DNA of 64,000 nucleotides from Patescibacteria group bacterium (lineage in GTDB: Bacteria; Patescibacteriota; Minisyncoccia; Phycocordibacterales; PALSA-1337). The DNA is taken from assembly GCA_038065395.1 (NCBI GenBank), contig JBBTRB010000004.1:135178-199177 (forward strand), written 5' to 3'. The position numbers were made by a program, and so were the translations under genes. The notes under the pieces are model-generated. The model was given only the letters and a program-made list of their open reading frames with translations. It searched no databases and was not told the origin of the DNA. Of this stretch, positions 1 to 52,019 are shown piece by piece; positions within the stretch are counted from its first letter, which is position 1; every line of letters begins with the position of its first letter.

Positions 1-1029
1 ATCACGAGTACCACGACCTGCGCATTCTATGACAGTGACGGAGACGGTTCGAGTGCCACAGCGATCGATACCGGAGACTATTTGAGCTCACTTGCAGTCG
101 GTGTCACAGTACAGCCAGAAGGTATGACCTGGGACAGTACCGGCGATACACTCTATGTGTTAGGAGAAGCAGACTTCTTGGCGAAATACCGTACGAACGC
201 GTACACGACTCGACATACATTCACCTCGGTTGCCAACGGCAGCTATGTCGTCAAAGCAACATCTCTCGATGCTAACAGTGTTACTGCCAACGCTTCCTCC
301 ACCGCCTTTACACTCAGTATCGACAGCTCTGGTCCCTCGGTATCAATGACTGCACCGACCAGTGGCTCCACGGTTTCCGGTTCTTCTGTGACCGTGTCCG
401 CAACGGCATCAGATGATGTTAGTGTTTCGGGTGTTACTTTCAAATACAATACCAATACGGTTATTGGTTCAGAAGATACTTCTAGTCCTTACTCGCTCAG
501 TTGGGACAGTACAGGAGTCAGTGATGGTTCATACTCGATCATTGCAGTTGCTCGTGATGGTGTAGGGAACTATGCCACCTCGTCGAGTGTTACGGTGACA
601 GTTGATAATGATCCAGAAGAGGAGGAAGAAGAGGAAGCCCCTCAACCGACTCGTAGTGGAAGTTCTACTGCGGCGATGAGGGCGGCATTCTTGGCACAGC
701 AGATGATCGCCCAGAATTCGAATACGACACCATCACAGAATACAGCATCCCAAACTATGAACAAGCCTCTCTTCTACGGACTTCGTGATGAGCAGGTCAG
801 GGTTGCTCAGAGGATCCTGAACATGGATCCGGATACTCGAGTTGCCGTCACTGGTCCTGGTTCGCCTGGCAATGAAACAGGTCTCTTCCTCGACAAGACT
901 CGTGCCGCACTCCAAAAGTTCCAGCTCAAGTACGGCATCGTCAGCTCTCCGAATACTCCCGGCTACGGCACTATCGGTCCTGCCACTCGTAAAAAGATGA
1001 ACGAGATCATCGTGATGCTCGGTCTCTAG
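1..1029 (+). CDS. Surface protein, 5'-partial (reading frame open from window start). It has Ser/Thr-rich Ig-like repeats, an acidic E-run and a C-terminal peptidoglycan-binding (PG_binding_1-like) domain
   Basis: ORF is continuous from nt 1 in frame with the M at 82. The C-terminus LRDEQVRVAQRILN...GLFLDKTRAALQKFQLKYGI resembles the PG-binding domain 1 helix pair. Confidence 0.6.
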   Translation: MTSTTTCAFYDSDGDGSSATAIDTGDYLSSLAVGVTVQPEGMTWDSTGDTLYVLGEADFLAKYRTNAYTTRHTFTSVANGSYVVKATSLDANSVTANASSTAFTLSIDSSGPSVSMTAPTSGSTVSGSSVTVSATASDDVSVSGVTFKYNTNTVIGSEDTSSPYSLSWDSTGVSDGSYSIIAVARDGVGNYATSSSVTVTVDNDPEEEEEEEAPQPTRSGSSTAAMRAAFLAQQMIAQNSNTTPSQNTASQTMNKPLFYGLRDEQVRVAQRILNMDPDTRVAVTGPGSPGNETGLFLDKTRAALQKFQLKYGIVSSPNTPGYGTIGPATRKKMNEIIVMLGL

Positions 1030-1100
1030 TCTCTAGAGCCAGCCCACAATCTCTTAGATCGATCAAGAATCCCCGGTATATCCTGGGATTTTTTACATAT

Positions 1101-1267
1101 ATAAATTCCCGGTAGCATATTTCTCCTTCATTGCCTGCGGAACTTGCTTCGTGCAATGGTAACGGAAATGTCTCGAGCCAGGCTGAGCGAGACATTTCCT
1201 AACCATTGCTACTCGCTTCGGACAGGTCCTCGGCCGCTTCAGGAGAAATATGCTACCGGGAATTTAT
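1101..1267. repeat. MITE-like element / long imperfect palindrome. 26-bp perfect terminal inverted repeats (1101..1126, 1242..1267) enclose an inner near-perfect hairpin (1153..1175 / 1188..1209)
   Basis: ataaattcccggtagcatatttctcc and its exact reverse complement ggagaaatatgctaccgggaatttat. Inner arms gcaatggtaacggaaatgtctcg / cgagacatttcctaaccattgc. Confidence 0.6.
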
Positions 1268-1382
1268 CACTTATCCACATACTTTTTGCTATTAAAAAAC
1301 CATAAAGTGGGGTAAAATATCCATCAAGTGGGAAGAAGTGGTATATAGAAAAAAGTAAGATATTACTTCATCTCACGAACAT

Positions 1383-1823
1383 ATGCTCATCGGAGAATAC
1401 AGACACACTATCGATGACAAGAACCGCCTTTCACTTCCTGCCAAGTTCAGACAGGAAATGGGCAAAAAGGTGGTAATCACTCCCGGACTTGATTCATGCC
1501 TCTTCGTTTTTACCACGAAAGAATGGAACAAGATCTCCGAGCACTTGTCAGTGACTGGATCTTCTCTCTTGCAGGCAGATAATCGAAGTCTCAACCGATA
1601 TCTCTTGGGAAGAGCGGTCGAGGTAGAGATAGATGCTTCGGGTCGTATGCTCATTCCAGAACACCTTCGTACGCGTGCACATCTCGAGACGAAAGTCGTC
1701 TTCATCGGTGTCAAAGACCGCGTCGAAATATGGGATGAGACTCGATGGGGTGCCTATGTTGTCGAAGTAGAGGCAAAGGCAGATGCGCTGGCAGAGAAGC
1801 TTGGGCAAGCAGGAATGATTTAA
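1383..1823 (+). CDS. mraZ: Transcriptional regulator MraZ
   Basis: Duplicated MraZ-type motif: DDKNRLSLPAKFR... and a second half, ~145 aa, first gene of the dcw cluster upstream of rsmH. Confidence 0.85.
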   Translation: MLIGEYRHTIDDKNRLSLPAKFRQEMGKKVVITPGLDSCLFVFTTKEWNKISEHLSVTGSSLLQADNRSLNRYLLGRAVEVEIDASGRMLIPEHLRTRAHLETKVVFIGVKDRVEIWDETRWGAYVVEVEAKADALAEKLGQAGMI

Positions 1824-1830
1824 GTAAGTT

Positions 1831-2754
1831 ATGTCACAACCTTCAAACTCAAGCGTCCACGTACCGGTTCTTTTACATGAAGTGATCGAAGGGTTGTCAC
1901 GAGCACATGTTGCTGGTCGCCCGTATGTCTATGTTGACGGGACACTCGGTGGGGCAGGGCATGCACGAGAGTTCGCTGCTTCACGAAAAGGCAATCTCGT
2001 CATCATCGGTTGCGATCGAGATCCTCAGGCTGTTGTACGGGCTCAGAGCACACTTGCAGGGCAGGCCACACAGCTTATCCTCGAACAGGCCAACAGTCGT
2101 GATATCGACAAAGTACTCGATACTCACGGGATACAGCAGGTAGACGGCATACTGCTCGATCTGGGGATCTCCTCTGATGAACTCGACATCTCTGGCAAGG
2201 GATTTTCTTTCCAGAGAGATGAGCCCCTCCTTATGACCATGGGTGATCCTGCAACGTACGCCTTCACCGCAAAGGACATCGTCAATACCTGGGAAGAAGA
2301 GACGATCGCCGATGTGATCTTTGGATATGGAGAAGAACGCTACGCACGTCGTATCGCACGCACGATCGTCAACTATAGGCAGAAGAAACCGATCGAGACT
2401 ACGGCCGAACTGAGCGAGATCATCCGCATGTCAGTCCCTCCTGTCTATCGACGAGGCAAGATCCATCCCGCTACCAGAACCTTTCAGGCATTGCGCATTG
2501 CGGTCAACGATGAGCTCGGTGCATTGAAAGACGTGTTGAAGAGAGGCTTCGAACGACTTGCTCCAGGAGGAATACTCGCGATCATTTCATTCCATAGTCT
2601 CGAAGACCGCATCGTCAAAGATTTTAATAAAGAAAAGTTCGCTGCAGGACAGGCCGCGATACTGACCAAGAAGCCAACAACCGCCACGCCAGAAGAAATA
2701 CAAAAGAACCCACGATCACGAAGCGCAAAATTACGAATATTACAAAAAATATAA
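1831..2754 (+). CDS. rsmH: 16S rRNA (cytosine1402-N4)-methyltransferase RsmH/MraW
   Basis: HVPVLLHEV...YVDGTLGGAGHA and ISFHSLEDRIVK motifs. Position after mraZ. Confidence 0.9.
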   Translation: MSQPSNSSVHVPVLLHEVIEGLSRAHVAGRPYVYVDGTLGGAGHAREFAASRKGNLVIIGCDRDPQAVVRAQSTLAGQATQLILEQANSRDIDKVLDTHGIQQVDGILLDLGISSDELDISGKGFSFQRDEPLLMTMGDPATYAFTAKDIVNTWEEETIADVIFGYGEERYARRIARTIVNYRQKKPIETTAELSEIIRMSVPPVYRRGKIHPATRTFQALRIAVNDELGALKDVLKRGFERLAPGGILAIISFHSLEDRIVKDFNKEKFAAGQAAILTKKPTTATPEEIQKNPRSRSAKLRILQKI

Positions 2755-2763
2755 CTACATAGC

Positions 2764-3087
2764 ATGACTCAGACCATTGCACGCACATATGAACAAAGTG
2801 AAGGATACAGAGTGTATATCACCTACGCCCTTGCCTCACTCTGCGCGTTCGCTATCGTCATGTATATGTTCAACATGTATCGAGTCATTTCATACTCGGT
2901 TGCACTCCAGGGAACAGAAGCAGACACCGTGACTGTCCAGAAATCCGTACAAGAACTCGATATGAAATATATTAGTCTCTCCAACCGTATCACTCCAGAC
3001 CTCGTACATGCTCGAGGTATGAGCGAAGGTACAGTTACGAGTTATATCTCTCGTACACCAACGCTTGGCATGGTATCTTTGAGATGA
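2764..3087 (+). CDS. Small bitopic membrane protein, FtsL-like cell-division protein (positional assignment)
   Basis: 107 aa with a single TM helix then a coiled region. Located between rsmH and ftsI as ftsL usually is. Confidence 0.5.
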   Translation: MTQTIARTYEQSEGYRVYITYALASLCAFAIVMYMFNMYRVISYSVALQGTEADTVTVQKSVQELDMKYISLSNRITPDLVHARGMSEGTVTSYISRTPTLGMVSLR

Positions 3088-3088
3088 T

Positions 3089-4804
3089 ATGGATCCTCAT
3101 CAACGACTCCGAGCGCGTGGCATACTCATAGGCATTATTCTGACCGCATGCATACTCGGTTTTTCGTTGTATTGGATACAGATCGTTCAGGGCGACACCT
3201 ATAGAGCCAAGGCCAACCTTCAATACGAGAAACCGTCAGCCTATGCACTCGATCGAGGCTCTATCTTCTTCAACTCCAAAGACGGCACTCGCGTCTCAGC
3301 AGCTACGGTCACTCAGGGTTTCGTAGTGCATATGGATCCGACCAAAGTGACTGATATCGAAAGTGAATATCAGGCACTCTCGCATTATATCTACGTTGAT
3401 AAGGATGATTTTGTGCGCAAAGCACAAAAGCCAGGAGATCGATATGAAGAGATCGTAGAACGAGCAGATGCTGACAAGGCGATCGCTATAGCAGAACTCG
3501 GACTTCCGGGAATCGGTATATCCAAGAAGAGTTGGCGGTCATATCCGGGCGGTCAGCTGTCCTCGCATGTGTTGGGATTGATCGGTGAGAACGGCGATGG
3601 TTCTATCGAAGGTCGCTACGGTCTCGAGCGTACCTACGAAGAGATACTCAAACGTACCTCACAGAGTGCCAGTACCAATGTGTTCACACAGATATTCACG
3701 GGTCTGCGTGATACGGTGTTCGGCAGTAGTGGTACCAAACAGGGTGACATCGTCACCACTATCGAGCCAACCGTCGAAGGGTATGTCGAAGGAATACTCA
3801 AAAACATCCAAGCAGAATGGAACTCCGACAGGGTAGGAGCTATCGTGATGGAACCTCGTACGGGTAAGATCGTTGCTATGTCTGCATTGCCGACATTCGA
3901 TGCGGGTAACCTCTCGGGTATCAGTGACGTATCGATACTCTCCAACCCACTGGTCGAGCATGTCTATGAGATGGGTTCGATCATGAAGCCATTGACCATG
4001 GCGATCGGTCTCGATACTGGAGCGATCAAGCCAACCTCTACCTACGAAGACACGGGTACGATGACGATCGGTGACAAGAAGATCTCCAACTATGACGGCA
4101 AGGCGCGCGGCACAACCGTGATGCAAGAAGTTTTGAGTCAGTCGCTCAACCTGGGTGCGGCGACGATCGCTCTCAAAGTGGGGAGTGAAGATTTCAAAAA
4201 ATATTTTGATATGTTCGGCTTTGGGACCAAAACCGGTATCGATCAACCTAACGAAGGTACTGGACTCCTTGATAACCTTGACTCGGCGCTCGATATCGAG
4301 ATCGCAACCGCGGCGTACGGCCAAGGCGTAGCAGTCTCTCCTATTGCGATGACACGTGCCTTGGCGGTTCTAGCCAATGGTGGCTACGCAGTCCGACCAC
4401 ATCTCGTCGAACGTATCGAGTATGCCGACGGCAGTACCACAGAAGTCCCTGTAGAAAAAAGTGATCGTATCCTCGGTCAAAAGGCTGTGGAGGATACGAC
4501 CAAGATGTTGGTCAGAGTCGTCGACACTGCTCTCAAGGGTGGAGATATCAAGATGGAACGTTATACGGTTGCCGCAAAGACGGGTACTGCCCAGATCGCT
4601 GATCCTGAAAATGGCGGATACTACACTGACCGATACTTACACTCATTCTTCGGATATTTCCCTGCATACGATCCACAGTTCATCATTTTCCTTTATCATG
4701 TGAACCCAAAGAACGCTCGTTTCGCTTCTGAGACCCTCACCAAACCTTTCCAAGAGATCAGTCGTTTCCTCATCACGTATTACGACATCCCGCCGGATCG
4801 ATGA
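3089..4804 (+). CDS. ftsI: Penicillin-binding protein transpeptidase (FtsI/PBP3-like)
   Basis: N-terminal TM and the transpeptidase triad SIMK (SxxK), SNY (SxN), KTGTA (KTG). dcw context. Confidence 0.85.
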   Translation: MDPHQRLRARGILIGIILTACILGFSLYWIQIVQGDTYRAKANLQYEKPSAYALDRGSIFFNSKDGTRVSAATVTQGFVVHMDPTKVTDIESEYQALSHYIYVDKDDFVRKAQKPGDRYEEIVERADADKAIAIAELGLPGIGISKKSWRSYPGGQLSSHVLGLIGENGDGSIEGRYGLERTYEEILKRTSQSASTNVFTQIFTGLRDTVFGSSGTKQGDIVTTIEPTVEGYVEGILKNIQAEWNSDRVGAIVMEPRTGKIVAMSALPTFDAGNLSGISDVSILSNPLVEHVYEMGSIMKPLTMAIGLDTGAIKPTSTYEDTGTMTIGDKKISNYDGKARGTTVMQEVLSQSLNLGAATIALKVGSEDFKKYFDMFGFGTKTGIDQPNEGTGLLDNLDSALDIEIATAAYGQGVAVSPIAMTRALAVLANGGYAVRPHLVERIEYADGSTTEVPVEKSDRILGQKAVEDTTKMLVRVVDTALKGGDIKMERYTVAAKTGTAQIADPENGGYYTDRYLHSFFGYFPAYDPQFIIFLYHVNPKNARFASETLTKPFQEISRFLITYYDIPPDR

Positions 4805-4828
4805 TTGTGTCATTCTGTTTCTTTTTTG

Positions 4829-4858
4829 TGTCATCCCCGCGAAGGCGGGGATCCAGGA
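4829..4858 (+). repeat. 30-bp GC hairpin repeat, copy 1 (tgtcatccccgcgaaggcggggatccagga), REP-like
   Basis: Exact copy also at 19848..19877. Exact inverted copy at 4988..5017. Variant at 62599..62625. Confidence 0.8.
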
Positions 4859-4987
4859 TCACTCCCAGTATATAGTCGACTTAGGTTATACGAACAATGA
4901 ACATGATAGGTTCGGCATTTACTTACAGGAGTAGTATCTAATGTTTTGTGGTTGTATAGACATTAAATAAGCAGCCACGCCCTTGCT

Positions 4988-5017
4988 CCTGGATCCCCGC
5001 CTTCGCGGGGATGACAA
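4988..5017 (-). repeat. 30-bp GC hairpin repeat, copy 2 (inverted orientation). Together with copy 1 it forms a perfect 30-bp inverted repeat around a 129-bp spacer
   Basis: tcctggatccccgccttcgcggggatgaca is the exact reverse complement of copy 1. Confidence 0.8.
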
Positions 5018-5048
5018 CCTGTGCTATCTTTATAGGTACTTCATTCCC

Positions 5049-6383
5049 ATGTCCCTGCTCAAGTCCATCATCGTCGCAATCCTCCTTCTGGAAGCCCGTC
5101 TTATTCTGAGGAAATACAAGCCTTTTGTCGTAGCGGTGACCGGTAGTGTCGGCAAGACGTCAACTAAGGACGCTATATTTACCGTACTAACCTCTTCGAA
5201 GATCTGTACTGACCAGAAGATGTGTTATGTCCGTAAGAGTGAGAAAAGCATGAACAGCGAGATCGGTCTGCCACTCTCTATCATCGGTGCGCCCAATGCG
5301 TGGCATAGTCTCTCTGGCTGGCTTGCAAATATCTTCAAGGGCCTGTCTCTCATCGTGACCCGTAAAGAGTATCCGGATTGTCTCGTCCTCGAAGTCGGTG
5401 CGGACCACCCTGGAGATATCAAGAAAGTCGCCCCCTGGTTGCGTCCCGATGTAGCCGTCATCACCAAAGTCAGTAGCACGCCTGTACACGTAGAGTTCTT
5501 CACGTCACCCGAGCAGGTCTTCGAAGAAAAGGCATCTCTCGCTCGTGAGGTCAAGGAGGGTGGGGTGGTGGTCTTGTATGGTGATGATGACAAGACGCTG
5601 TCGATACGAGACATGGTCGCAACTGGCAACCGTTCGGTGATCACTTTCGGCATGTCAGGATCCGCCGAGGTGCGAGGTATTGATGAGCAGGTTATCTATG
5701 AAGAAGTAGGCGGAATGAAAAGCCCAGTCGGTTCGCAGTTCACTCTCGATATAAAAGGTTCACAATCACCCATCACGATCGCAAGAGGTCTGGGCCAAGG
5801 ATATATACAGACGCTTCTCGCCGCCGCCGCAGTCGGTGTTGCTCGTGGTATGAGCAGTGCAGATATAGCAAAGGCTCTCAATGCGTATACCGTCACTCCA
5901 GGAAGGATGAATATCATCGCGGGTATTGCCGGTTCGACGATCATTGACGATACCTACAACTCTTCTCCTGATGCTGCACTCTCGGCACTACAGGCACTCG
6001 GACAGATCGAAACTTCCGGGACCAAGATCGCTATCTTAGGTGACATGATGGAACTGGGCAAATACGCTACTGACGAACATCGCAAGATCGGAGTCGCTGC
6101 TGCCGGTATTGTCGGACGACTCGTCACTGTCGGTCAACGCTCTCGCTGGACTACCGAAGAAGCTCTCAAGAACGGTCTCTCTGCTGACAAGGTGTCTTCG
6201 TTCGATACTGCCGAGCAAGCTCTAGAATATATCAAGCCTCTGATCCAGGCAGGAGATGTGATCCTCGTAAAAGGTTCTCAGTCTGTGCGTATGGAGAAAG
6301 TATCTCGGGCACTCTTGCGTGACGCTGACAAGGCAGGGGAACTTCTGGTGAGACAGGAGAAGGAGTGGCTGGAGAAGAGGTAG
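5049..6383 (+). CDS. murF: UDP-N-acetylmuramoyl-tripeptide--D-alanyl-D-alanine ligase MurF
   Basis: Mur ligase P-loop VTGSVGKTSTKD and C-terminal Mur ligase domain. The ORF-table start at 4983 merely translates the repeat (DPRLRGDD). The likely true start is the ATG at 5049 (MSLLKSI...). Confidence 0.85.
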   Translation: MSLLKSIIVAILLLEARLILRKYKPFVVAVTGSVGKTSTKDAIFTVLTSSKICTDQKMCYVRKSEKSMNSEIGLPLSIIGAPNAWHSLSGWLANIFKGLSLIVTRKEYPDCLVLEVGADHPGDIKKVAPWLRPDVAVITKVSSTPVHVEFFTSPEQVFEEKASLAREVKEGGVVVLYGDDDKTLSIRDMVATGNRSVITFGMSGSAEVRGIDEQVIYEEVGGMKSPVGSQFTLDIKGSQSPITIARGLGQGYIQTLLAAAAVGVARGMSSADIAKALNAYTVTPGRMNIIAGIAGSTIIDDTYNSSPDAALSALQALGQIETSGTKIAILGDMMELGKYATDEHRKIGVAAAGIVGRLVTVGQRSRWTTEEALKNGLSADKVSSFDTAEQALEYIKPLIQAGDVILVKGSQSVRMEKVSRALLRDADKAGELLVRQEKEWLEKR

Positions 6384-6441
6384 GTGACATTTCACGACTT
6401 CGAAATAGTGTGTTATATTGCCGAAGTCAAATAGGTTATTT

Positions 6442-6513
6442 GGCCCTATCGTCTAATGGCTAGGACGGAGCCTTCTCAAGGCTTAAATCGGGGTTCGACT
6501 CCCCGTAGGGTCA
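6442..6513 (+). tRNA. tRNA-Glu (anticodon CUC)
   Basis: Manual cloverleaf fold: acceptor GGCCCTA/TAGGGTC, D-arm GTCT..GGAC, anticodon stem GAGCC/GGCTT with loop TTCTCAA, T-arm CGGGG-TTCGACT-CCCCG, discriminator A. No encoded CCA. Confidence 0.8.
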
Positions 6514-6884
6514 CAGGTTTTGAGCGAGCACAGCGAGTGAAAAAGCTGTGACCCTAAGCAAAGCGTCTGCACGCTTTGCGTCGGGGAGTCGAAAAGGTTC
6601 TCCCTTATTTTCGACACTCTGAAGCGTAGCGGAAGAGGGGAGAAAATGGGAAACCTGTACTGAAGCTGTAAGCTTCGACTCCCCGTAGGGTCACAAACAG
6701 ATATGAAACGGTTTTCCAGTGCCTGGAATCCTCGTTTACACTTATATTCCAACGTATCTTCTATGATGGTGAGTTCGGAAAAGATTAACTTGATGATTGC
6801 TTCCTTTTCTGTTGGTTTGGCGAAATCATAATATAAACAAACGTTTTTCAAGAGTTCGGAAAGTTTTACTATATCCTTCGTCAT
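6483..6884 (-). CDS. Hypothetical small protein. Only the N-terminal ~60 codons (6700..6884) lie in unique sequence; the rest of the ORF reads through the att-like repeats and the tRNA
   Basis: ORF only. No recognisable motif. Its 3' part overlaps the tRNA and repeats, so the true extent is doubtful. Confidence 0.2.
   Translation of the reverse strand: MTKDIVKLSELLKNVCLYYDFAKPTEKEAIIKLIFSELTIIEDTLEYKCKRGFQALENRFISVCDPTGSRSLQLQYRFPIFSPLPLRFRVSKIRENLFDSPTQSVQTLCLGSQLFHSLCSLKTCDPTGSRTPI
6494..6700. repeat. Cluster of reiterated tRNA-Glu 3'-end fragments (att-like scars)
   Basis: A direct 22-bp exact copy of the tRNA T-arm/acceptor is at 6674..6695. Inverted partial copies are at 6540..6552 and 6579..6597. 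A further partial direct copy lies at 12954..12965. Confidence 0.65.
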
Positions 6885-7745: not shown

Positions 7746-10700
7746 ATGAATTTTTCACTGAATTCCTATATAAAATACTGTTTAGGCTATCTTAGTCTCA
7801 CAAGACCTACAGGATTCAATAGAGGCACTTCAATAGACATAAAAATCCCTCAAGAATATTTCTCCTTAAGTAAACTTACGAACGGTGATACGGACGGGAG
7901 TTTGAGTGAGATTATCAACTTAGACTATTACTACAATACAGACCCGAAGGATGTTACTGAAGAAAACGAAGAAAAGTATAAAAAGGAAAAGGCACTTGCG
8001 CTACAGCTAGATGAAATATACAGCAAAGCGAAAAATGACACTTTCACAAAAGAAACCATATTGCGTTTCGGACGTTTTGATTTTGAAGTACTCGAAGAGC
8101 CTATAGTTGATACAGACGAAGAAGTTTTAGAAACCAAAAAAGACACACCAGTAGAAGAAGCAAAATTGGTATCAAAACAATTTTACCTTTTTTCATTGCC
8201 AGTAAGAATTGATAAGGAAAAAGACAAAAATAATATCGATAAATACACGATTATTCCAGTTGACTTTGAAGTTCGCCTAAACCTTCCTCCACTGTACGAA
8301 ATTTTTAGAACTTACAAAAAAGAAGATTTGGTGTACGAATTTTTAAACGAATATACCAAACTAGAAAGCGAAGGTGGTTTTTCTATTCCAATCCCTTCTG
8401 AAAAAATATTCTTAGACTTATGGCACATTCTTAAGGCAAAATTACGCCTGACTGAAGCAGTTTTTAATGAAAGTTCATTTACTCTTGATGACCTTCGATT
8501 AACTCTTGCCCCAAGAGCAAACTTCTTCTTGGTTGAAGATTTAACAAAGCTAGCGAAAGAAAAAGAGGAGCTTTTGGAAGGTACTTCGCTCTCGGGTTGG
8601 TTTTCTGAAGAAGGTCTAAACGTAAATTCGGATAGTTGTGAAGAAAAATCTCTATATTTTCCATTCCCATATGATAAGTTTCAAAGCGCAACCACTTCTC
8701 TTCTAGGTAATAAGGCTTCAATAATCCAAGGGCCACCAGGAACGGGAAAATCAGAGACTATTTCAAACATAATTTCTCATCTTGCTGTAAATAAAAACAA
8801 GGTTTTGTTCGTAAGTCAGAAACCCCAAGCTCTACGTGTTGTGAAGGATAAACTGAAAACCCTAGGCGTACCTCTTTTATTTGGATATATCCCGAGCGTT
8901 AAATTTGAGCAATCCCAGGATGAAGAGAGCGACACCATATCGTCGCAACTTGCAGCACTCGATACATATGGAGCTTATAAAGGTGTTGTAAAATCATCTT
9001 CTAATCTGAATAGCTTTACTCAAAATTCAGATGTTGTTTTCGATAAAAGAGATAAAATCATCTCCCTTGAAAGAGAGATATTTAGGCTTGAAGAACAGAA
9101 GCGTAACTACGATTTTCTTGACCAATTACCCTCAATAGATGAAGAGAGAATTATAACCGACCTCACGGAAGATTTATTTAGTGCTTATAAAAATATACTT
9201 CACAAAATATCGGCAAATAAAAATCTTATTGAGAATACCCACGACATATCAAAAAAATATAGTTTTGATAAAGAGCTATTTTGCGATAGTACTTTTTCAG
9301 ATTTACTCAAGACTGTATTGGCAGATGTTAAAAAGACTGGTTTCGATAGGTCATTTAAACTTGGAAGGTATATAAATAATCTTAGTAGAAAAATAAGACT
9401 CAAATCTCATCTAGGACAACTACCAAAAGAAATTTATGAAGAAATAGACAGCATATTAAAAAAGGACTCATCGCGGCATAGCGCAACAAAAGAATTGGAG
9501 CAGCTACTCGGTTTCTGTATTTATTGGGAAGCAATACAAGAAAATGAGAAGTTAGAAATATCTTTACAAGAAATCGAAAGTAACTTAAATCTGTCCAGAG
9601 ATGATTTTTCTACAATTTCTTCTTTTTTGAAAGAAAACTCTTTATCAGTATCGGAGCTTGTTGTTAAGCTTTCCGACCGCGCTCTCTTGAATCACAACCA
9701 GCAAAATTTTAGAGAAGATATTTCAACCCTTAAGAAAGAAGTTACGGGTAAAAATCAAATTACAAGGAAAGATATAGTGGCGCAATACCTATCTTCAATA
9801 ATCGAAGACAATATAAAAAATAATGTCTCACAGGTTAAAATATACAGAAAGCTTCAAGAGTTACAGAAAGCTTTTAAAAAATCAAAGAAAGCTTTCAAAA
9901 CTTTCGATAAGTTGAAAAATGACCCGACCAACTTTGAGACAATATTGAACATTGTTCCTGTCTGGATTATGGATTTAGACGATGCAAGTCGTCTTATTCC
10001 TTTAGTCTCAAACATGTTCGATTATGTCGTATTTGATGAAGCATCACAGTGCAATATTGCGTACACAATACCCTCAATGTATAGAGCGAAAAAGGCTGTA
10101 TTTGTTGGCGACCCAGAACAAATGAGAGACAGTACTGTAATGTTTAAATCGAACCAAGCATTTGACCAGCTCGCGAGCCGTTACAAAGTACCAGAGAGTC
10201 TACAAATAAAACCGACGGGTACAGCAGTGCAGTCTGTTTTGGATATTGCTAAAACAAGATTTGGAATACCCAAGATACTTCAATATCACTACCGTTCTCC
10301 GATGGAGTTGATTGGTTTTAGTAATAAGTATTTTTATGAACCGAAAGGCAAACGGCTTATTGCTTTGAATAACAAATATCTTACTTATAAGGATACAAAT
10401 CGGATAATGGTGCTTCATAATATCGAGTACAGCGGTATTGGAGAGATTGGCGATAATACAAACAATGCAGAGGCAGTGAAAGCACTGGAGCTTTATCTAG
10501 ATATGATTAAAGACCCAAAGTATGAAAATAAGAGTTTTGCCATACTCACGTTTTTTAATGACCAAGCAGAGCTAATCCGAAAGGTTTTTGAAGATAACAG
10601 GATTAAAGAAAGTGATAAATTAAAAATTGCTGTAATAGAAGGTATTCAGGGGGATGAAAAAGATATTGTTATATATTCTTTCGTTATTAGGGATGCCGCA

Positions 10701-11261
10701 CAAAAAAGACAGTATCGCCCTCTGACAGGAGAAACTGGAGATATGCAGGCCGATATTAACGCAGGTAGAGTAAACGTTGCTTTCTCAAGAGCAAAGCTTC
10801 AAGTTCACTGTATTATAAGTATGCCTATAGAAAAAATACCTTCAGGTATATGGATAAAGAAATACCTGGAATATGTGAGAGACAACGGTGAGGTATCTGC
10901 TTCCAGATTAACACTTCAAAAATTCGATAGTTACTTCGAGGAAGAATTCTATCATCTTCTTAAAAAGAAGCTTGGTAAGGGCTACACAATTCAAAACCAA
11001 GTCGAAAGTTGTGGCTTTAAAATTGATTTTGTTGCAACTAACACAAGTACTGGAAGACAGTTAGCAATTGAATGTGATGGGCCGACACACTTTAAAGACC
11101 ACATCGACGAGGCATATGGTATTTATGTTGATAGTGATATTCAGAGACAGAGGGTTTTGGAAAGTGCTGGTTGGACATTCTGTAGAATTGGATATTCCGA
11201 ATGGATTGAGAGCGAGGATAATAAAGAAACTATCGTTAAAAACATCAAACTACTGCTTTAA
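7746..11261 (+). CDS. SF1 (Upf1/DNA2-like) helicase fused to a C-terminal DUF559/Vsr-like (PD-(D/E)xK) endonuclease domain, with a ~330-aa N-terminal region. Hhe-like single-protein defence architecture
   Basis: Walker A IIQGPPGTGKSETI, Walker B/motif II YVVFDEASQC, motif VI RVNVAFSRAKLQVH. C-terminus GFKIDFVA...LAIECDGPTHF...QRQRVLESAGWTFCRIGYSEW matches the DUF559/Vsr-like fold signature. Confidence 0.75.
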   Translation: MNFSLNSYIKYCLGYLSLTRPTGFNRGTSIDIKIPQEYFSLSKLTNGDTDGSLSEIINLDYYYNTDPKDVTEENEEKYKKEKALALQLDEIYSKAKNDTFTKETILRFGRFDFEVLEEPIVDTDEEVLETKKDTPVEEAKLVSKQFYLFSLPVRIDKEKDKNNIDKYTIIPVDFEVRLNLPPLYEIFRTYKKEDLVYEFLNEYTKLESEGGFSIPIPSEKIFLDLWHILKAKLRLTEAVFNESSFTLDDLRLTLAPRANFFLVEDLTKLAKEKEELLEGTSLSGWFSEEGLNVNSDSCEEKSLYFPFPYDKFQSATTSLLGNKASIIQGPPGTGKSETISNIISHLAVNKNKVLFVSQKPQALRVVKDKLKTLGVPLLFGYIPSVKFEQSQDEESDTISSQLAALDTYGAYKGVVKSSSNLNSFTQNSDVVFDKRDKIISLEREIFRLEEQKRNYDFLDQLPSIDEERIITDLTEDLFSAYKNILHKISANKNLIENTHDISKKYSFDKELFCDSTFSDLLKTVLADVKKTGFDRSFKLGRYINNLSRKIRLKSHLGQLPKEIYEEIDSILKKDSSRHSATKELEQLLGFCIYWEAIQENEKLEISLQEIESNLNLSRDDFSTISSFLKENSLSVSELVVKLSDRALLNHNQQNFREDISTLKKEVTGKNQITRKDIVAQYLSSIIEDNIKNNVSQVKIYRKLQELQKAFKKSKKAFKTFDKLKNDPTNFETILNIVPVWIMDLDDASRLIPLVSNMFDYVVFDEASQCNIAYTIPSMYRAKKAVFVGDPEQMRDSTVMFKSNQAFDQLASRYKVPESLQIKPTGTAVQSVLDIAKTRFGIPKILQYHYRSPMELIGFSNKYFYEPKGKRLIALNNKYLTYKDTNRIMVLHNIEYSGIGEIGDNTNNAEAVKALELYLDMIKDPKYENKSFAILTFFNDQAELIRKVFEDNRIKESDKLKIAVIEGIQGDEKDIVIYSFVIRDAAQKRQYRPLTGETGDMQADINAGRVNVAFSRAKLQVHCIISMPIEKIPSGIWIKKYLEYVRDNGEVSASRLTLQKFDSYFEEEFYHLLKKKLGKGYTIQNQVESCGFKIDFVATNTSTGRQLAIECDGPTHFKDHIDEAYGIYVDSDIQRQRVLESAGWTFCRIGYSEWIESEDNKETIVKNIKLLL

Positions 11262-11275
11262 ATAATATCTTATTA

Positions 11276-12871
11276 TTGTATATGCCTCTCTTAACAAAAA
11301 CAGACTTTATTTTGTATCGTGAATGTCCAAATAATGTCTGGTTGAAAAGAAACAAACCAGAGGAGTACTGTAAGTTTGAGATTTCTGAATTTGAAAAATC
11401 ACTTGCTGTAATAGGTAATGATGTAGAAGAGTTGGCTCGAGGGATGTTTCCTTCGGGTTATCTTGTGGAGCGGCGAAGTGCTGGCGCACAAGAATTAACT
11501 CAAAAGTTAATTGCTGAAAAAACTCCTGTGATTTTCCAAGCAGTTTTTGCTACTGATAAATGTCTTGCGGCTACTGATGTTTTGCAATGGAATGATTCAG
11601 CCCAGAAATATGATATTTATGAAATAAAGATGTCATCTACGGAAGAGGATGACGAAGAAGAAGTGGAAGAAGGGAAGCCTAAGAAAGTTAATAAAAAGAA
11701 AGAACTCCAGTATGAATATGACCTCGCCTTTCAGGTAAATATTGCCGAGGCATGTGGTGTTCCACTACATAAAAAATACCTTGTTTGTTTGAACCGAGCA
11801 TATGTAAGGAATGGTGAGCTTGATTTTAGACCGAACCAGCTTTTCATTGTTGAGGATAAAACCGACGCAATCGAACTTATGAAAGACGTCGTTGGAGCGG
11901 AGATGTCTCAATCACAAAACTTCCTAGCGGCCACTGCGATGCCTCCCAGCCCTTGTCCTTGCTATTACAAAGGGCGCAACTCGCATTGTACGGCATTTAC
12001 ATACTTAAACCCGACCGTACCCGCATACAGTGTCCATGACTTGAATAGAATCGGAAATAGTAAGAAGTATCTAAAAGAATTACTCGATGAGGGCATTTTG
12101 GAGATTAGCGCTGTTCCTGTTGATGATAGACTTAAGCCAAAGCCCAAGAAAAGTACAGAGAAACCAAGTAAGCCGAAAAAGTTAAACCAAGTCTTAGTTC
12201 ACAAATCTCAAGAGCCTTTAATTGATATTGATTCGATAAAAAATGAACTTGGCGCACTCGTATTTCCACTTTATTTTCTCGATTATGAGACTTATCCGAC
12301 AGCAATTCCTCCTTATAATGGTTATCGACCATATCAGCAAATTGTCTTTCAGTATTCATTACACATCCTGAAAGATAAAGATTCCGAACCGATTTCTTTG
12401 GAATGTTTAATATTAGACGGTGAACCTTCTGAACGTATAGTTAAAAGCCTGCGTGAACATATTGGTGATACTGGAACTGTAATTTCTTGGTTTAAGACTT
12501 TCGAAAACTCTAGAAATCGTGAGCTGGCAACCCTAATACCGAGCCGTAGAGATTTTCTTCTCGGTCTTATTACTCGAACGTATGATTTGATGGATATAGT
12601 AGATGGTCAGCATTACGTACATCCTGGTTTTGAAGGCAGAGCATCAATTAAAAAAGTTTTGCCTGTTATTGCTCCACATCTATCTTATAAAAAACTATGT
12701 GTCCAGAGTGGTACAGATGCAATTGAAGCGTATAGGCAAATAACTAAAGGAGAGTTAACAGGTGAATTAGCCAAAGAAAAGGAGCTTCAAATGCTTGAAT
12801 ACTGCAAGTTGGATACCTACGCCATGTACGTTTTATGGAACTTCTTCAATAAGTTAGTGGATGAAAGTTAA
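11276..12871 (+). CDS. DUF2779-like protein with an N-terminal Cas4/RecB-like nuclease region and a Cys cluster
   Basis: N-terminus KTDFILYRECPNNVWL, central CPCYYKGRNSHC, C-terminal block YFLDYETYPTAIPPYNGYRPYQQIVFQYSLHIL typical of DUF2779. It starts 15 nt after the helicase stop, so is probably co-transcribed. Confidence 0.55.
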   Translation: MYMPLLTKTDFILYRECPNNVWLKRNKPEEYCKFEISEFEKSLAVIGNDVEELARGMFPSGYLVERRSAGAQELTQKLIAEKTPVIFQAVFATDKCLAATDVLQWNDSAQKYDIYEIKMSSTEEDDEEEVEEGKPKKVNKKKELQYEYDLAFQVNIAEACGVPLHKKYLVCLNRAYVRNGELDFRPNQLFIVEDKTDAIELMKDVVGAEMSQSQNFLAATAMPPSPCPCYYKGRNSHCTAFTYLNPTVPAYSVHDLNRIGNSKKYLKELLDEGILEISAVPVDDRLKPKPKKSTEKPSKPKKLNQVLVHKSQEPLIDIDSIKNELGALVFPLYFLDYETYPTAIPPYNGYRPYQQIVFQYSLHILKDKDSEPISLECLILDGEPSERIVKSLREHIGDTGTVISWFKTFENSRNRELATLIPSRRDFLLGLITRTYDLMDIVDGQHYVHPGFEGRASIKKVLPVIAPHLSYKKLCVQSGTDAIEAYRQITKGELTGELAKEKELQMLEYCKLDTYAMYVLWNFFNKLVDES

Positions 12872-13013
12872 TTTATTACAAGTATGGATTCTAGGCTTTT
12901 AATCGAGAAAGCGATAGAATCTCTATATTTAACAAGTTCGGAAAGCCACCCTATAGGGTCACAAAATTTGAATGAACTTATTTTTTTATAACTAATAAAA
13001 ATTTAAAATACAT

Positions 13014-13535
13014 ATGCTCAAAATAAATTTTTATCCTGAAAGTGATCTGAAAGACTTTGCTGAAGCTGTTACTATTTTTGAAAAAATGTGGCAAGAAGAA
13101 GGGGAACGAATCACTGATACGTGGGAACGGGTTACAGGATTGAAGTTCATTGAAACAGAAATAAATGCAGTTGTTGCTGATCTCAAGAGTTGCTCTCACC
13201 CACTTACGTTGAGGTATAGCAATGAATATGATTTCAAGAAATCTACATTGGTACATGAACTCGGTCATCGCATACTATACAGACGGGAAAGTAGTGCTGG
13301 GAACAAAACGACATTTGAGAGACATAAGTTTTTGTTTCTGGTTTTGTACGATGTTTTCTGTGAACTATATGGTCAAGAGTTTACTTATAAAGTTATAGCT
13401 TGGGATAGTAGTCTAGGAAAAGACAAAGGTAGGTCAATGTATGAAGATGCCTGGCAATGGGCATTACAATATAAGACAAAAGAAGAACGACAAAAAATCT
13501 ACAAGGAAATCTTGTCAGGAGAATATGTTTTCTAA
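13014..13535 (+). CDS. HExxH metallopeptidase-like protein, ImmA/IrrE (COG2856)-like
   Basis: Motif STLVHELGHRILY (HELGH) in a ~173-aa protein. AT-rich. Confidence 0.5.
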   Translation: MLKINFYPESDLKDFAEAVTIFEKMWQEEGERITDTWERVTGLKFIETEINAVVADLKSCSHPLTLRYSNEYDFKKSTLVHELGHRILYRRESSAGNKTTFERHKFLFLVLYDVFCELYGQEFTYKVIAWDSSLGKDKGRSMYEDAWQWALQYKTKEERQKIYKEILSGEYVF

Positions 13536-13594
13536 TTTTCGATCTAGTAACTATAAAGTTCCCAACTCTAACTTTAAGTAGTATACTAGTTGGA

Positions 13595-14215
13595 ATGGAT
13601 TCAAAACCTACTGTACGATATGCATTTATAGATGTTCAGAACACTGAAGGGACAGTCAGTCACCTTCTCGGTTTTGTTATTGATTGGCATAAGCTCTACC
13701 ATTACCTCAAAGAACAATGGAATTGCGAAAAGGTATTTTTCTATTCTGGTATTGACCAAGGTAATGAAGATAAAATCGACGAACATCTTGCTCTAAAGAA
13801 TCTCGGTTATGAGATGTCCATCAAACCGTATAAGATATATAAAAATTCCGACAAAATCATTAAAATCATGTGTTCAAAATGCGCGAATGAAATCGACTAT
13901 AAAATTGAAGGTGGTGTCCGATGGAAATCAAATTGTGATGCGGAGCTTTCTGTTGATGCAACAAATCTGGCAAAATCTGGTGCTGAATTTCTGATCTTTT
14001 CAGGAGACGGAGATTTTGAGTGTGTAATAAGGAATGCCGTAGAAAAGGGGGTGAAGGTATACGTGGTCTCCAGCGCACGGAAAGTAAAGACTGGCTTACG
14101 TTACTCTTCATCGAGATTCTCAACCAAACTACGCGAGCTCATTGCTGAGAAACGTGATCTGGTTATTTTCAAAGATATCAATGACTGGAAGATGAGGATC
14201 AAAAAAGATATTTAG
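13595..14215 (+). CDS. NYN/LabA-like (PIN-fold) nuclease-domain protein with an inserted Cys4 zinc-ribbon
   Basis: N-terminal YAFIDVQNT and FSGDGDF acidic motifs typical of NYN domains. Insert CSKCANEIDYKIEGGVRWKSNCD. Confidence 0.55.
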   Translation: MDSKPTVRYAFIDVQNTEGTVSHLLGFVIDWHKLYHYLKEQWNCEKVFFYSGIDQGNEDKIDEHLALKNLGYEMSIKPYKIYKNSDKIIKIMCSKCANEIDYKIEGGVRWKSNCDAELSVDATNLAKSGAEFLIFSGDGDFECVIRNAVEKGVKVYVVSSARKVKTGLRYSSSRFSTKLRELIAEKRDLVIFKDINDWKMRIKKDI

Positions 14216-17124: not shown

Positions 17125-17198
17125 CCCTAGGGTAGGCCTAGGGACGAAAGTGAGCCATGCTAGAAGTATTTCGTACCTTCCTAGGCCTACCCTAGGGA
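17125..17198. promoter_or_regulatory. Perfect 18-bp inverted repeat (ccctagggtaggcctagg ... cctaggcctaccctaggg) with a 38-nt spacer in the divergent gmhB/csp intergenic region. Candidate operator or 5'-UTR structure
   Basis: Read directly. Located ~90 nt upstream of the cold-shock gene start. Confidence 0.5.
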
Positions 17199-19847: not shown

Positions 19848-19877
19848 TGTCATCCCCGCGAAGGCGGGGATCCAGGA
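19848..19877 (+). repeat. 30-bp GC hairpin repeat, copy 3 (solo), immediately downstream of the valS stop
   Basis: Identical to 4829..4858. Confidence 0.8.
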
Positions 19878-20042
19878 TTATGTCACTGAAGTAGTAAATT
19901 CCTCCAGGTGGCGATAGTAACTTTCTCAGTTTCTACTCATACAGGCTAAAGTGACAAGAAAAGTTGTCACTTTAAGGTATTTGGCTCAAAAATGAAAACT
20001 ATATGGGAATCGACTATTAAATTCCATGCTACTATGTAAGCC

Positions 20043-37112: not shown

Positions 37113-37134
37113 TAAGACGTCTTGTAGGAGTACA

Positions 37135-37326
37135 CTAAAATCTCCACCCTAGGCACTTAATTTCCAGTGCAACGGGTTAGTTACCATTAAGGTACGAATT
37201 GCCAGGACGATCCCACAGCTGGACCAGGTGACCATCTCAAACCATCTTGGCTTTATTGAATGATCCCTGCGACTTACGCTCTGAGACCCTTTAATATATC
37301 TCTGGATTTCTAAGGTGGAGATTTTA
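37135..37326. ncRNA. Candidate structured noncoding element (~190 nt) closed by a 13-14 bp inverted repeat (ctaaaatctccacc / ggtggagattttaa). Identity unknown
   Basis: Intergenic between convergently ending and starting + strand genes. No ORF. The long closing stem was read directly. Confidence 0.35.
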
Positions 37327-37396
37327 ATGAACTCCGTTTAATTATACAGGCGGTCACATGTTTTACAAGTCGAGTCTAAACAAGTAGACTTATCAT

Positions 37397-45037: not shown

Positions 45038-45077
45038 GAAGGCAGGGTAACTAGAGAAAAGTAACTGGTAACAAGAA

Positions 45078-45108
45078 AAAGCCCCTGGTTTTTGCCAAGG
45101 GTTTTTCT
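45078..45108. terminator. Bidirectional terminator between convergent rplI and rpmA (A-run, GC hairpin, T-run), nested in a larger 20-bp inverted repeat (45055..45130)
   Basis: aaaaagcccctggtttttgccaagggttttt read directly. Confidence 0.6.
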
Positions 45109-45152
45109 ACTTTCTAGTTACGAGTTACTTTTCTCCTATTACACTCCTTCAC

Positions 45153-51968: not shown

Positions 51969-52019
51969 AGTGAGTCCATTTTACACTGATAAAGACAAAT
52001 AAAAAAGCCCTGATACGGA

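What the first reader, a model, noticed from the sequence alone, without database searches (positions are those of the whole stretch)
1101..1267. 166-bp MITE-like element with 26-bp perfect terminal inverted repeats and a nested internal hairpin, upstream of mraZ
ataaattcccggtagcatatttctcc (1101..1126) is mirrored exactly at 1242..1267. Inside this, a second near-perfect 22-bp inverted repeat (1153..1175 / 1188..1209) forms a nested hairpin.

The element occupies most of the intergenic region between the surface-protein gene and mraZ, so it would sit in or near the mraZ/dcw promoter. It could be a non-autonomous transposable element, a structured sRNA, or a large regulatory cruciform.
Basis: seen in the sequence. 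Interest (0 to 1): 0.55.

Follow-up and report, generated by a model that had tools for sequence, protein, structure and literature searches.

The report
Orphan palindromic insert upstream of mraZ
A real 167-bp DNA palindrome with transposon-like ends lies just upstream of the cell-division operon's control region in a groundwater Patescibacteria genome, but only one copy could be found and it looks like a tolerated passenger rather than a regulator.

Summary
Positions 1101-1127 and 1241-1267 form a perfect 27-bp inverted repeat around a 113-bp core. The core holds a nested hairpin (1153-1209). The 167 bp fold as one rod on either strand (about -89 kcal/mol, z = -10.9).

The sequence is identical in a 62x-coverage ENA contig, so it is not an assembly error.

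It lies between the intrinsic terminator of a lineage-specific surface-protein gene (1068-1094) and a conserved dcw control module: a TTATCCACA box at 1271-1279, MraZ boxes at 1305-1341, then mraZ. Relatives place the terminator directly against this box, so the palindrome is extra DNA. Similarity to relatives starts at 1268.

Its anatomy matches a MITE: 27-bp terminal repeats, a 113-bp non-coding core and AT/TA flanks. A distant relative carries an unrelated 111-bp element at the same box, with 33-bp terminal repeats and an 8-bp target-site duplication.

I found no second copy in 74.7 kb of this genome or in any collection searched, and no transposase. Pairing is almost purely Watson-Crick, there is no promoter or terminator of its own, and Rfam gives no match. 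These points argue against an RNA gene.

Verdict: an orphan MITE-like foldback insertion, probably a passenger. Interest is low.

The parts
1..1029 (+). 3' end of the upstream surface-protein gene (Big_7 and a weak PG_binding_1 hit; the full gene is 968 aa in L085, with fn3, SdiA-regulated and Big_7 domains)
   Evidence: No close ortholog exists in the protein database (best hit 64% identity over 29% of the query). Relatives have lysS or greA at this position instead.
1068..1094 (+). Intrinsic terminator of the upstream gene: stem AATCCCCGG / CCTGGGATT, loop TATAT, then six T (1089-1094)
   Evidence: The terminator scan gives stem 1072-1087 plus a T tail; sequence read.
1101..1127 (.). Left arm of the perfect 27-bp inverted repeat (a putative terminal inverted repeat)
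1128..1240 (.). 113-bp core, only partly self-complementary, 55% GC against 31-42% in the flanking spacers
1153..1209 (.). Nested hairpin: 8-bp and 12-bp perfect segments separated by small bulges, with loop AGCCAGGCTGAG
1241..1267 (.). Right arm of the perfect 27-bp inverted repeat
1271..1279 (+). TTATCCACA box (identical to the DnaA-box consensus, from my own knowledge). It is the first conserved element of the mraZ upstream module and begins 3 nt after the palindrome.
   Evidence: Present with at most one mismatch upstream of mraZ in 44 of the 45 related loci surveyed, plus the window. Only two exact copies occur in the 64-kb window. Similarity to relatives starts at 1268.
1305..1341 (+). 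Three AAGTGG repeats (1305, 1326, 1336), read as MraZ boxes, overlapping a conserved TAAAAT at 1313-1318 (inferred -10 element)
   Evidence: The motif matches the Mollicutes MraZ site AAAGTG[T/G] cited in PMC8475190.
1383..1823 (+). mraZ, first gene of the mraZ-rsmH-ftsL-PBP-murF block

Best explanation
The element is a single-copy, non-coding foldback insertion of the MITE type, an 'orphan MITE'. It consists of a 113-bp core between perfect 27-bp terminal inverted repeats, flanked by an AT/TA dinucleotide.

It sits in the short spacer that normally separates an upstream gene's intrinsic terminator from the conserved control module of the dcw operon. That module is the TTATCCACA box, the MraZ boxes and the -10 element. 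Removing 1101-1267 would leave the terminator T-run 9-11 nt from the box, depending on whether one flanking AT stays. That is the layout seen in relatives.

Inferred: it arrived by transposition, or together with the lineage-specific surface-protein gene. It is tolerated because it leaves the control module intact.

Inferred: the perfection of the arms is a DNA-level property. It reflects either transposase-binding ends or templated conversion between the arms, and not selection on an RNA.

Inferred and untested: its most likely consequence is passive. Any read-through past the terminator would fold into a 27-bp perfect duplex within a roughly -89 kcal/mol rod. That is a substrate of the kind RNase III cleaves in Correia elements. 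Cleavage there would uncouple mraZ from upstream transcription.
For: - The repeat and the fold are far beyond chance.
- L085 (62x coverage) is 100% identical to window 1-6754.
- The geometry matches described prokaryotic MITEs: under 500 bp, terminal repeats of about 4-30 bp, stable stem-loop transcripts. One example, QMITE2, has 23-29-bp terminal repeats and a 113-145-bp core (PMC10969869).
- No frame of the element matches any predicted protein.
- A canonical terminator lies upstream at 1068-1094.
- The conserved module starts at 1271, and similarity to relatives starts at 1268.
- In most of 45 related loci the terminator T-run lies 1-20 nt from the box, with no long hairpin between.
- The closest relatives (MraZ 95% identical; L011, L012, L020) have a 134-141-nt spacer without the element.
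- The core is 55% GC against 31-42% in the flanking spacers.
- Precedent at the same site: L038 carries an unrelated 111-bp element with 33-bp perfect terminal repeats, flanked by a perfect 8-bp direct repeat TACTTATC. It is inserted into the same box, and L036 shows an empty-site-like sequence.
- Pairing is 61 Watson-Crick and 2 G-U pairs on the + strand and 62 and 0 on the - strand.
Against: - No second copy was found. There is one copy in 74.7 kb of this genome: the window, plus 2.2 kb to the left and 8.5 kb to the right.
- GTDB representative genomes gave none with a 22-mer.
- Metagenome contigs gave only one chance 20-mer, inside an unrelated gene.
- IMG/VR, plasmids and phages gave none.
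- 0.9 Mb of relatives' loci gave none.
- The only possible target-site duplication is the self-complementary dinucleotide AT or TA. It cannot be told apart from an extension of the inverted repeat.
- No transposase or recombinase was found among 42 window ORFs.
- The upstream gene differs from that of all relatives. The left junction therefore has no orthologous comparison, and the element could have arrived by rearrangement rather than by its own transposition.
- The element is quasi-palindromic right to its centre, which transposition does not require.
Confidence: 0.45

Rival explanations
1. The element is a locally generated quasi-palindrome, made and kept perfect by intramolecular template switching or gene conversion, and sitting at a rearrangement junction. 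No transposase is involved. Its perfect 27-bp and 12-bp segments would be recent templated corrections of an older, decaying palindrome.
For: - The element is self-complementary through its centre, but patchily. It has 27 perfect bp, then a poorly matched 25/31-nt stretch, then perfect 8-bp and 12-bp segments, and a near-palindromic apex AGCCAGGCT. Uniform decay would not give this pattern.
- Such conversion is seen directly in relatives. In L013 a cluster of changes makes the left arm the exact complement of the right arm, compared with L014. In L018 the interior is flipped.
- Template switching as a source of perfect stems is documented in PMC8794818.
- The element sits exactly at the synteny break. 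lysS and greA, which lie upstream of mraZ in most relatives surveyed, are absent from the window.
- Its terminal repeat resembles the adjacent terminator arm (AATCCCCGGTA against AATTCCCGGTA).
- All long inverted-repeat elements seen in these genomes are unique in sequence.
Against: - About 170 bp of extra, relatively GC-rich DNA must still have come from somewhere. No source sequence was found in the window or in relatives.
- The resemblance to the terminator arm is weak: I estimate about 0.15 such matches expected by chance.
- The L038 case shows that true transposition with a target-site duplication happens at this very site.
Confidence: 0.25
2. The element is a divergent ortholog of the 154-159-nt hairpin that relatives carry between lysS and mraZ. 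It would be a structure-conserved, sequence-labile module of the region upstream of the dcw operon, working as a DNA cruciform, an insulator or a small RNA.
For: - The geometry is very similar: arms of 36-44 nt with 79-81 nt between them in the window, L013, L014 and L018.
- There are shared motifs at matching positions: A[T/C]ATTTCTCC..CATT[G/C]CC in the left arm and CCA(A)GGCT in the apical loop.
- A covariance model built from the relatives' hairpin aligns end to end with window 1099-1269. It scores 36.1 bits on the + strand and 20.2 on the - strand.
Against: - Unrelated long hairpins score nearly as well with the same model: L038 31.7 bits, L032 29.8, L026 21.3. The score is therefore mostly generic.
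- BLAST, MAFFT and a pairwise alignment with shuffles show no significant sequence similarity.
- The closest relatives lack any such hairpin.
- In relatives the hairpin lies about 370 nt further from the box, with a small gene in between.
- Long hairpins are not significantly enriched at this spacer: 3 of about 40 lineages against about 3.4% per spacer overall, p about 0.15 by my own binomial estimate.
Confidence: 0.12
3. The element is a gene or processing signal for a structured small RNA: a rod-like RNA resembling 6S, or a precursor cut at the 27-bp stem.
For: The fold is very stable and the size is typical of rod-like small RNAs.
Against: - No Rfam family matches at the gathering threshold or at E up to 10.
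- No promoter-like site lies inside the element or just upstream beyond the chance expectation. No T-run follows the stem: the nearest is 16 nt downstream.
- Pairing is almost purely Watson-Crick and both strands fold equally well.
- No homologs exist to test for covariation.
Confidence: 0.08
4. The element is an invertible switch (inverton): the 27-bp repeats are recombination sites and the 113-bp core flips to change expression of a neighbouring gene.
For: - The size and repeat length resemble known invertons (from my own knowledge).
- A surface-protein gene lies next to it.
- In the relatives' hairpin the interior is inverted between L014 and L018.
- Correia elements can invert (PMC10969869).
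Against: - No promoter-like site lies in the core.
- The core is itself quasi-palindromic, so flipping would change little.
- No recombinase was found in the window.
- L085 and the window show the same orientation.
Confidence: 0.05
5. The element is an assembly artefact, a fold-back chimera.
For: - The source is a metagenome-assembled genome.
- A Logan contig stops exactly at 1127, the inner base of the left arm.
Against: - L085 (249.6 kb, 62x coverage) carries the identical sequence across both junctions. Four similar places were not shown.
- The flanks are not mirror images of each other.
- The core is unique and not palindromic enough to be a fold-back.
Confidence: 0.03

Closest known systems
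Prokaryotic MITEs in general (for example QMITE2 of Coxiella burnetii)
   Same: The element has the same layout: short, non-coding, with long terminal inverted repeats around a core of about 113 bp. It sits in an AT-rich intergenic spacer and its transcript would form a very stable stem-loop (PMC10969869).
   Different: Only one copy could be found, there is no clear target-site duplication, no partner IS was identified, and there is no sequence similarity to anything.
Correia repeat-enclosed elements (CREE/NEMIS) of Neisseria
   Same: Both have terminal inverted repeats and sit close to promoters and terminators. In Correia elements, RNase III cleaves transcripts at the terminal repeats, and the elements can invert (PMC10969869; PMC2649163). 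From my own knowledge, not from these papers: Correia elements are about 100-160 bp with 26-bp terminal repeats and a TA at each end.
   Different: Correia elements occur in more than 100 copies per genome. They carry promoters and an IHF site. Here there is one copy, no promoter-like site, a different phylum and an unrelated sequence.
ERIC/IRU imperfect palindromes of Enterobacteria
   Same: Both are palindromic along the whole length rather than only at the ends (the ERIC structure is from my own knowledge).
   Different: ERIC elements are a conserved multi-copy family (30-700 copies; PMC10969869). This element is a singleton.
The 111-bp element in relative L038 (9773-9883)
   Same: It lies at the same genomic position, against the TTATCCACA box upstream of mraZ. 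It has a long perfect stem (33 bp) around a short core.
   Different: It has an unambiguous 8-bp target-site duplication (TACTTATC). Its sequence and length are unrelated.
Hairpins created by template switching or quasi-palindrome correction
   Same: The stem segments are perfect and purely Watson-Crick, with degenerate stretches between them. Clustered arm-to-arm conversions are seen in relatives (PMC8794818).
   Different: The documented events are usually short and do not by themselves add about 170 bp of new DNA.
Invertons (fimS-type or Bacteroides promoter switches)
   Same: An inverted-repeat-flanked segment of 100-200 bp next to a surface-protein gene (the comparison with known invertons is from my own knowledge).
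   Different: No internal promoter and no nearby recombinase were found, and both orientations were not observed.

Membership tests
MITE (definition in PMC10969869) | Total length under 500 bp and no coding capacity | tested here: met
   The element is 167 bp. A six-frame translation has no match at E <= 1 among 5.8 billion protein clusters.
MITE (definition in PMC10969869) | Terminal inverted repeats of about 4-30 bp | tested here: met
   27 bp, perfect, at 1101-1127 / 1241-1267.
MITE (definition in PMC10969869) | Flanking direct repeats (target-site duplication) | tested here: inconclusive
   Only AT or TA is possible at each end. Being self-complementary, it cannot be told from an extension of the inverted repeat.
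MITE (definition in PMC10969869) | Several copies per genome, or other evidence of mobility | tested here: inconclusive
   There is one copy in 74.7 kb, which is about 10% of a genome of roughly 0.76 Mb. None was found in the genome, metagenome, viral, plasmid or phage collections. The rest of the genome could not be read. The only indirect sign of mobility is the element's absence from the relatives' site.
MITE (definition in PMC10969869) | A related autonomous IS or transposase able to mobilise it | tested here: not met
   The terminal repeat occurs only at the element itself in the window. Pfam scans of 42 window ORFs show no transposase. This could not be tested for the whole genome.
MITE (definition in PMC10969869) | Insertion into an AT-rich intergenic region, with a stable stem-loop transcript | tested here: met
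   The flanking spacers are 31-42% GC. The fold is about -89 kcal/mol with z = -10.9.
Correia element (CREE) | The conserved Correia terminal-repeat and core sequence | not tested
   No Correia reference sequence was available in the tools. From memory the Correia terminal repeat (TATAGTGGATTAA...) is unrelated to ATAAATTCCCGG....
Known structured RNA family (Rfam 15, including 6S and SRP) | A match to a covariance model | tested here: not met
   The only hit at the gathering threshold in the window is a tRNA at 6442-6513. At E <= 10, region 1000-1400 gives only two eukaryotic snoRNA chance hits.
Independent sRNA gene | Its own promoter and terminator, with strand-specific pairing (G-U pairs) | tested here: not met
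   One weak promoter-like site straddles the left end, which equals the chance expectation. No T-run follows the stem. There are 2 G-U pairs among 63 pairs on the + strand and none on the - strand.
Intrinsic terminator | A GC-rich stem directly followed by a U-tract | tested here: not met
   The scan finds a terminator only at 1072-1094, upstream of the element. After 1267 the nearest T5 run starts at 1283.
Inverton | A promoter inside the invertible segment | tested here: not met
   No promoter-like site lies in 1128-1240.
Inverton | Both orientations present in the population, and a site-specific recombinase | not testable with these tools
L085 and the window show one orientation. No recombinase was found in the window.
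The relatives' lysS-mraZ hairpin (L013/L014/L018) | Sequence and structure similarity above that of unrelated hairpins | tested here: inconclusive
   The covariance model R1 scores the element at 36.1 bits, but unrelated hairpins score 21-32 bits. No significant primary-sequence similarity was found.

The most novel reading that the evidence does not exclude
Paceibacterota keep a fast-evolving but structure-conserved long hairpin upstream of the dcw promoter. The window's palindrome and the relatives' 154-159-nt hairpin would be homologs. The hairpin would work together with the conserved DnaA-box-like TTATCCACA and the MraZ operator. It might act as a cruciform or insulator, or as a flip-capable element, linking replication status to transcription of the division operon.
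Probability: 0.1. Interest if true: 0.55.

Novelty: new member of a known kind. Interest (0 to 1): 0.2.

Why it matters
On its own the element matters little. It is a single, probably neutral foldback insertion in an uncultivated groundwater Patescibacteria genome.

Its main use is as a marker. It shows exactly where the dispensable spacer ends and where the conserved control module of the dcw operon begins. That module is the TTATCCACA box, the MraZ boxes and the -10 element.

With the L038 case, which has a clear target-site duplication, it shows that small palindromic mobile elements do insert in compact genomes of this group.

The side observation may be more interesting than the palindrome. 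A DnaA-box consensus lies upstream of the MraZ operator in nearly all Patescibacteria loci surveyed. This suggests a testable link between replication initiation and transcription of the division genes.

Tried and rejected
**Searches for other copies.**
- BLAST of the element against the window found only itself.
- A 22-mer scan of GTDB representative genomes found nothing.
- A 20-mer scan of metagenome contigs gave nine hits. All lie in one unrelated coding gene and match for exactly 20 bases, so this is a single chance event.
- IMG/VR, plasmids and phages gave nothing.
- BLAST against 0.9 Mb of relatives' loci gave nothing.
- Searching the element's six-frame translation, to catch spurious ORFs on other copies, gave nothing.

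**Comparison of the left flank.** A protein search with the upstream gene found no ortholog, so the left junction could not be compared.

**Homology with the relatives' hairpin.** MAFFT failed to align them. A pairwise alignment with shuffles gave z near 0. The covariance model hit looked promising at 36 bits. It was deflated by controls scoring up to 32 bits.

**Known RNA families.** Rfam found nothing for the element or for the relatives' hairpin.

**Replication origin idea**, prompted by the DnaA-box-like motif.
- There is only one box at this site.
- The GC skew is flat here.
- In a complete relative chromosome, mraZ lies 162 kb into the record.
- Rejected as an origin; kept as a promoter-associated box.

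**Special association of hairpins with the mraZ spacer.** Not significant (my own estimate).

**Retron, DGR, integron attC, bridge RNA or omega RNA.** Rejected because no partner gene lies nearby.

**Literature.** No paper was found on inverted repeats in Patescibacteria intergenic regions or on a DnaA box upstream of mraZ.

Full report
**1.

None of 100 shuffles gave two matches. The perfect repeat is 27 bp (1101-1127 / 1241-1267). It continues imperfectly to 44 nt at 82% complementarity, with 79 nt between the arms.

The nested repeat is a perfect 12-bp stem (1164-1175 / 1188-1199). It is extended by an 8-bp segment (1153-1160 / 1202-1209) across small bulges.

The 167 nt fold as one rod: -88.7 kcal/mol on the + strand and -90.3 on the - strand. 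The z-score is about -10.9, and 0 of 200 shuffles fold as well.

L085, an ENA contig of 249.6 kb at 62x coverage, is 100% identical to window 1-6754. Four similar places were not shown. An assembly artefact is therefore very unlikely.

**2. Organism and neighbourhood.**

The MraZ protein belongs to a Patescibacteria (Parcubacteria/Paceibacterota) genome assembled from metagenomes. Its longest contig is 0.76 Mb. The samples come from the Hainich H41 groundwater well.

- Downstream lie mraZ (1383-1823), rsmH, an ftsL-like ORF, a PBP and murF.
- Upstream lies the 3' end of a 968-aa surface protein with fn3, SdiA-regulated and Big_7 domains. It has no close ortholog anywhere.
- A canonical intrinsic terminator for that gene lies at 1068-1094.

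**3. What relatives show.**

I collected mraZ loci from about 45 related genomes. Nearly all share one upstream module:

- a box TTATCCACA, or a one-mismatch variant, sometimes doubled 11 nt apart;
- about 30 nt further on, a series of AAGTGG repeats overlapping a TAAAAT/TATAAT hexamer.

The repeats match the MraZ-box motif described for Mollicutes, AAAGTG[T/G] (PMC8475190). In the window the box is at 1271-1279 and the repeats are at 1305, 1326 and 1336. The box equals the DnaA-box consensus; that statement rests on my own knowledge.

In most loci the T-run of the upstream gene's terminator ends 1-20 nt before the box. In the window, the terminator is followed by 6 nt, then the 167-bp palindrome, then 3 nt, then the box. 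Removing 1101-1267 would leave the T-run 9-11 nt from the box, which is the usual layout.

Similarity to relatives begins at 1268. The closest relatives (MraZ 95% identical; L011, L012, L020) have lysS upstream and a 134-141-nt spacer without the element. lysS and greA are not in the window at all. The element therefore also marks a break in gene order.

**4. A transposon-type insertion at the same spot in a relative.**

L038 has an unrelated 111-bp element (9773-9883) with 33-bp perfect terminal repeats. It is flanked by a perfect 8-bp direct repeat, TACTTATC, which duplicates part of the box region. L036 shows an empty-site-like sequence. Small palindromic mobile elements do therefore insert here.

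L026 has a 197-bp hairpin and L021 a 36-nt palindrome against the same box.

Long inverted repeats are not significantly enriched at this spacer. About 3 of 40 lineages have one here, against about 3.4% of spacers overall, p about 0.15 (my own estimate). Five such repeats occur in the window alone, all different in sequence.

**5. Is it a MITE?**

The anatomy fits the published description: under 500 bp, terminal repeats of about 4-30 bp, AT-rich intergenic targets and stable stem-loop transcripts. QMITE2, for example, has 23-29-bp terminal repeats and a 113-145-bp core (PMC10969869).

- The element is non-coding.
- Its core is 55% GC against 31-42% in the flanking spacers.

Mobility is not shown.

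- The only candidate target-site duplication is AT or TA, which is self-complementary and so ambiguous.
- There is one copy in the 74.7 kb of this genome that I could read.
- There are no matches in GTDB representatives, metagenome contigs (nine hits, all one unrelated gene), IMG/VR, plasmids or phages, or 0.9 Mb of relatives' loci.
- No transposase or recombinase was found among 42 window ORFs.

About 90% of the genome remains unseen, so copy number is unresolved. Single-copy carriage is known for some MITEs: MITEAba12 ranges from 1 to 22 copies per genome.

**6. Is it an RNA?**

- Rfam gives nothing.
- No promoter-like site lies inside or just before the element beyond chance, and no T-run follows the stem.
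- Pairing is 61 Watson-Crick plus 2 G-U pairs on the + strand and 62 plus 0 on the - strand. The symmetry is therefore a property of the DNA. An RNA under selection would normally carry more wobble pairs and fold better on one strand.

**7. The relatives' hairpin.**

L013, L014 (with L015 and L016) and L018 carry a 154-159-nt hairpin just after lysS, about 370 nt upstream of the box. Its geometry is very like the window's element, with 36-39-nt arms and 80-81 nt between them.

Within that family, L018's interior is inverted relative to L014. In L013 a cluster of changes has made the left arm the exact complement of the right arm. These are DNA-level events: recombination between the arms and templated conversion. 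Template switching is known to create and maintain perfect stems (PMC8794818).

A covariance model of this hairpin aligns end to end with the window's element at 36.1 bits. Unrelated hairpins reach 21-32 bits, and no primary-sequence similarity is significant. Homology is therefore not shown. I give it about 0.1.

**8. Most likely mechanism.**

Shown:
- The element is extra, non-coding, DNA-symmetric sequence between a terminator and an intact, conserved promoter/operator module.

Inferred:
- It is a foldback insertion of mobile-element type, or it arrived with the lineage-specific upstream gene. It persists because it does not disturb the module.
- If the terminator leaks, the transcript would form a 27-bp perfect duplex. 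RNase III cleaves Correia elements at such duplexes. That would separate mraZ expression from upstream transcription. This is untested.

The main rival, at 0.25, is a locally generated quasi-palindrome kept perfect by templated conversion at a rearrangement junction.

**9. Unexplained.**

The Logan contig from ERR3858120 spans exactly window 1127-4855. Its right end falls in a 31-nt dispersed repeat, which is expected. Its left end falls on the innermost base of the 27-bp arm. The arm is shorter than what I understand, from memory, to be Logan's k-mer of 31, so the repeat alone should not break the graph. A minor variant, or fold-back reads at the base of the stem, could explain the break. I could not test either.

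**10. Verdict.**

The feature is real and ordinary in kind: a new, so far single-copy member of the class of small palindromic MITE-like elements. It has no evidence of function. Interest is 0.2.

Noticed in passing
window 1271-1279; upstream of mraZ in L011-L061: TTATCCACA, which equals the DnaA-box consensus, lies about 30 nt upstream of the MraZ-box repeats. It is present in 44 of the 45 related loci surveyed, plus the window, with at most one mismatch, and is sometimes doubled with 11-nt spacing. Only two exact copies occur in the 64-kb window (1271 on +, 35433 on -). I found no paper describing this.
   Followed up: partly
L038 9765-9891: A 111-bp element with 33-bp perfect terminal repeats is flanked by a perfect 8-bp direct repeat, TACTTATC. 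It is inserted into the TTATCCACA box region upstream of mraZ. It is a clear transposon-type insertion in a Patescibacteria genome.
   Followed up: partly
window 4829-5016 (also 19848-19878 and 62600-62623): A 188-bp inverted-repeat element fills the PBP-murF spacer. Its 31-33-nt arms (TGTCATCCCCGCGAAGGCGGGGATCCAGGAT, each with its own small hairpin) also occur at 19848-19878, with a weaker 24-nt match at 62600-62623. It is a small dispersed palindromic repeat. It also creates a spurious N-terminal extension of the murF ORF.
   Followed up: partly
window 37127-37335, 17125-17197 and 45054-45135: Three further long inverted repeats of unrelated sequence: 209 bp upstream of rmuC, 73 bp between divergent genes, and 82 bp enclosing a terminator after rplI. 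Long, unique, almost purely Watson-Crick hairpins occur about once per 15-35 kb in these genomes.
   Followed up: partly
L013 2463-2616, L014 2355-2509, L018 2421-2579: A 154-159-nt hairpin lies just after lysS in relatives. The interior is flipped in L018 relative to L014. In L013 the left arm has been converted to an exact complement of the right arm. The 3' side contains a T-loop-like GGGACTCGAATCCC. No Rfam family matches it.
   Followed up: partly
L033 7412-7694 and L038 7587-7869: A 21-27-bp inverted repeat (TGTATACTACCACTATACTAC...) flanks a segment of about 283 bp. The segment holds a promoter-like site and a tRNA gene, and it is conserved between two genomes.
   Followed up: no
window 7746-14215: A low-GC island (34-38% against 46%) encodes a 1171-aa SF1 helicase fused to a REase_MTES_1575/DUF559 nuclease, a DUF2779 protein and a NYN-domain protein. 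It may be a defence or mobile island.
   Followed up: no
window 1127 and 4855 (L001/L086): The Logan contig ERR3858120_312026 spans exactly 1127-4855. Its left end coincides with the innermost base of the 27-bp arm. The arm is shorter than what I understand, from memory, to be Logan's k-mer of 31, so the break is not explained by the repeat alone.
   Followed up: partly
window 1383-6383 and 50832-53123: The dcw genes are split. mraZ-rsmH-ftsL-PBP-murF lie at 1.4-6.4 kb on the + strand. murG and ftsW lie at 50.8-53.1 kb on the - strand, next to scpB and scpA.
   Followed up: no
window 1068-1078 against 1104-1114: The left arm of the upstream terminator (AATCCCCGGTA) resembles the start of the element's terminal repeat (AATTCCCGGTA) at 10 of 11 positions. 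It could be chance (I estimate about 0.15 expected), a preferred target, or a trace of local origin.
   Followed up: partly
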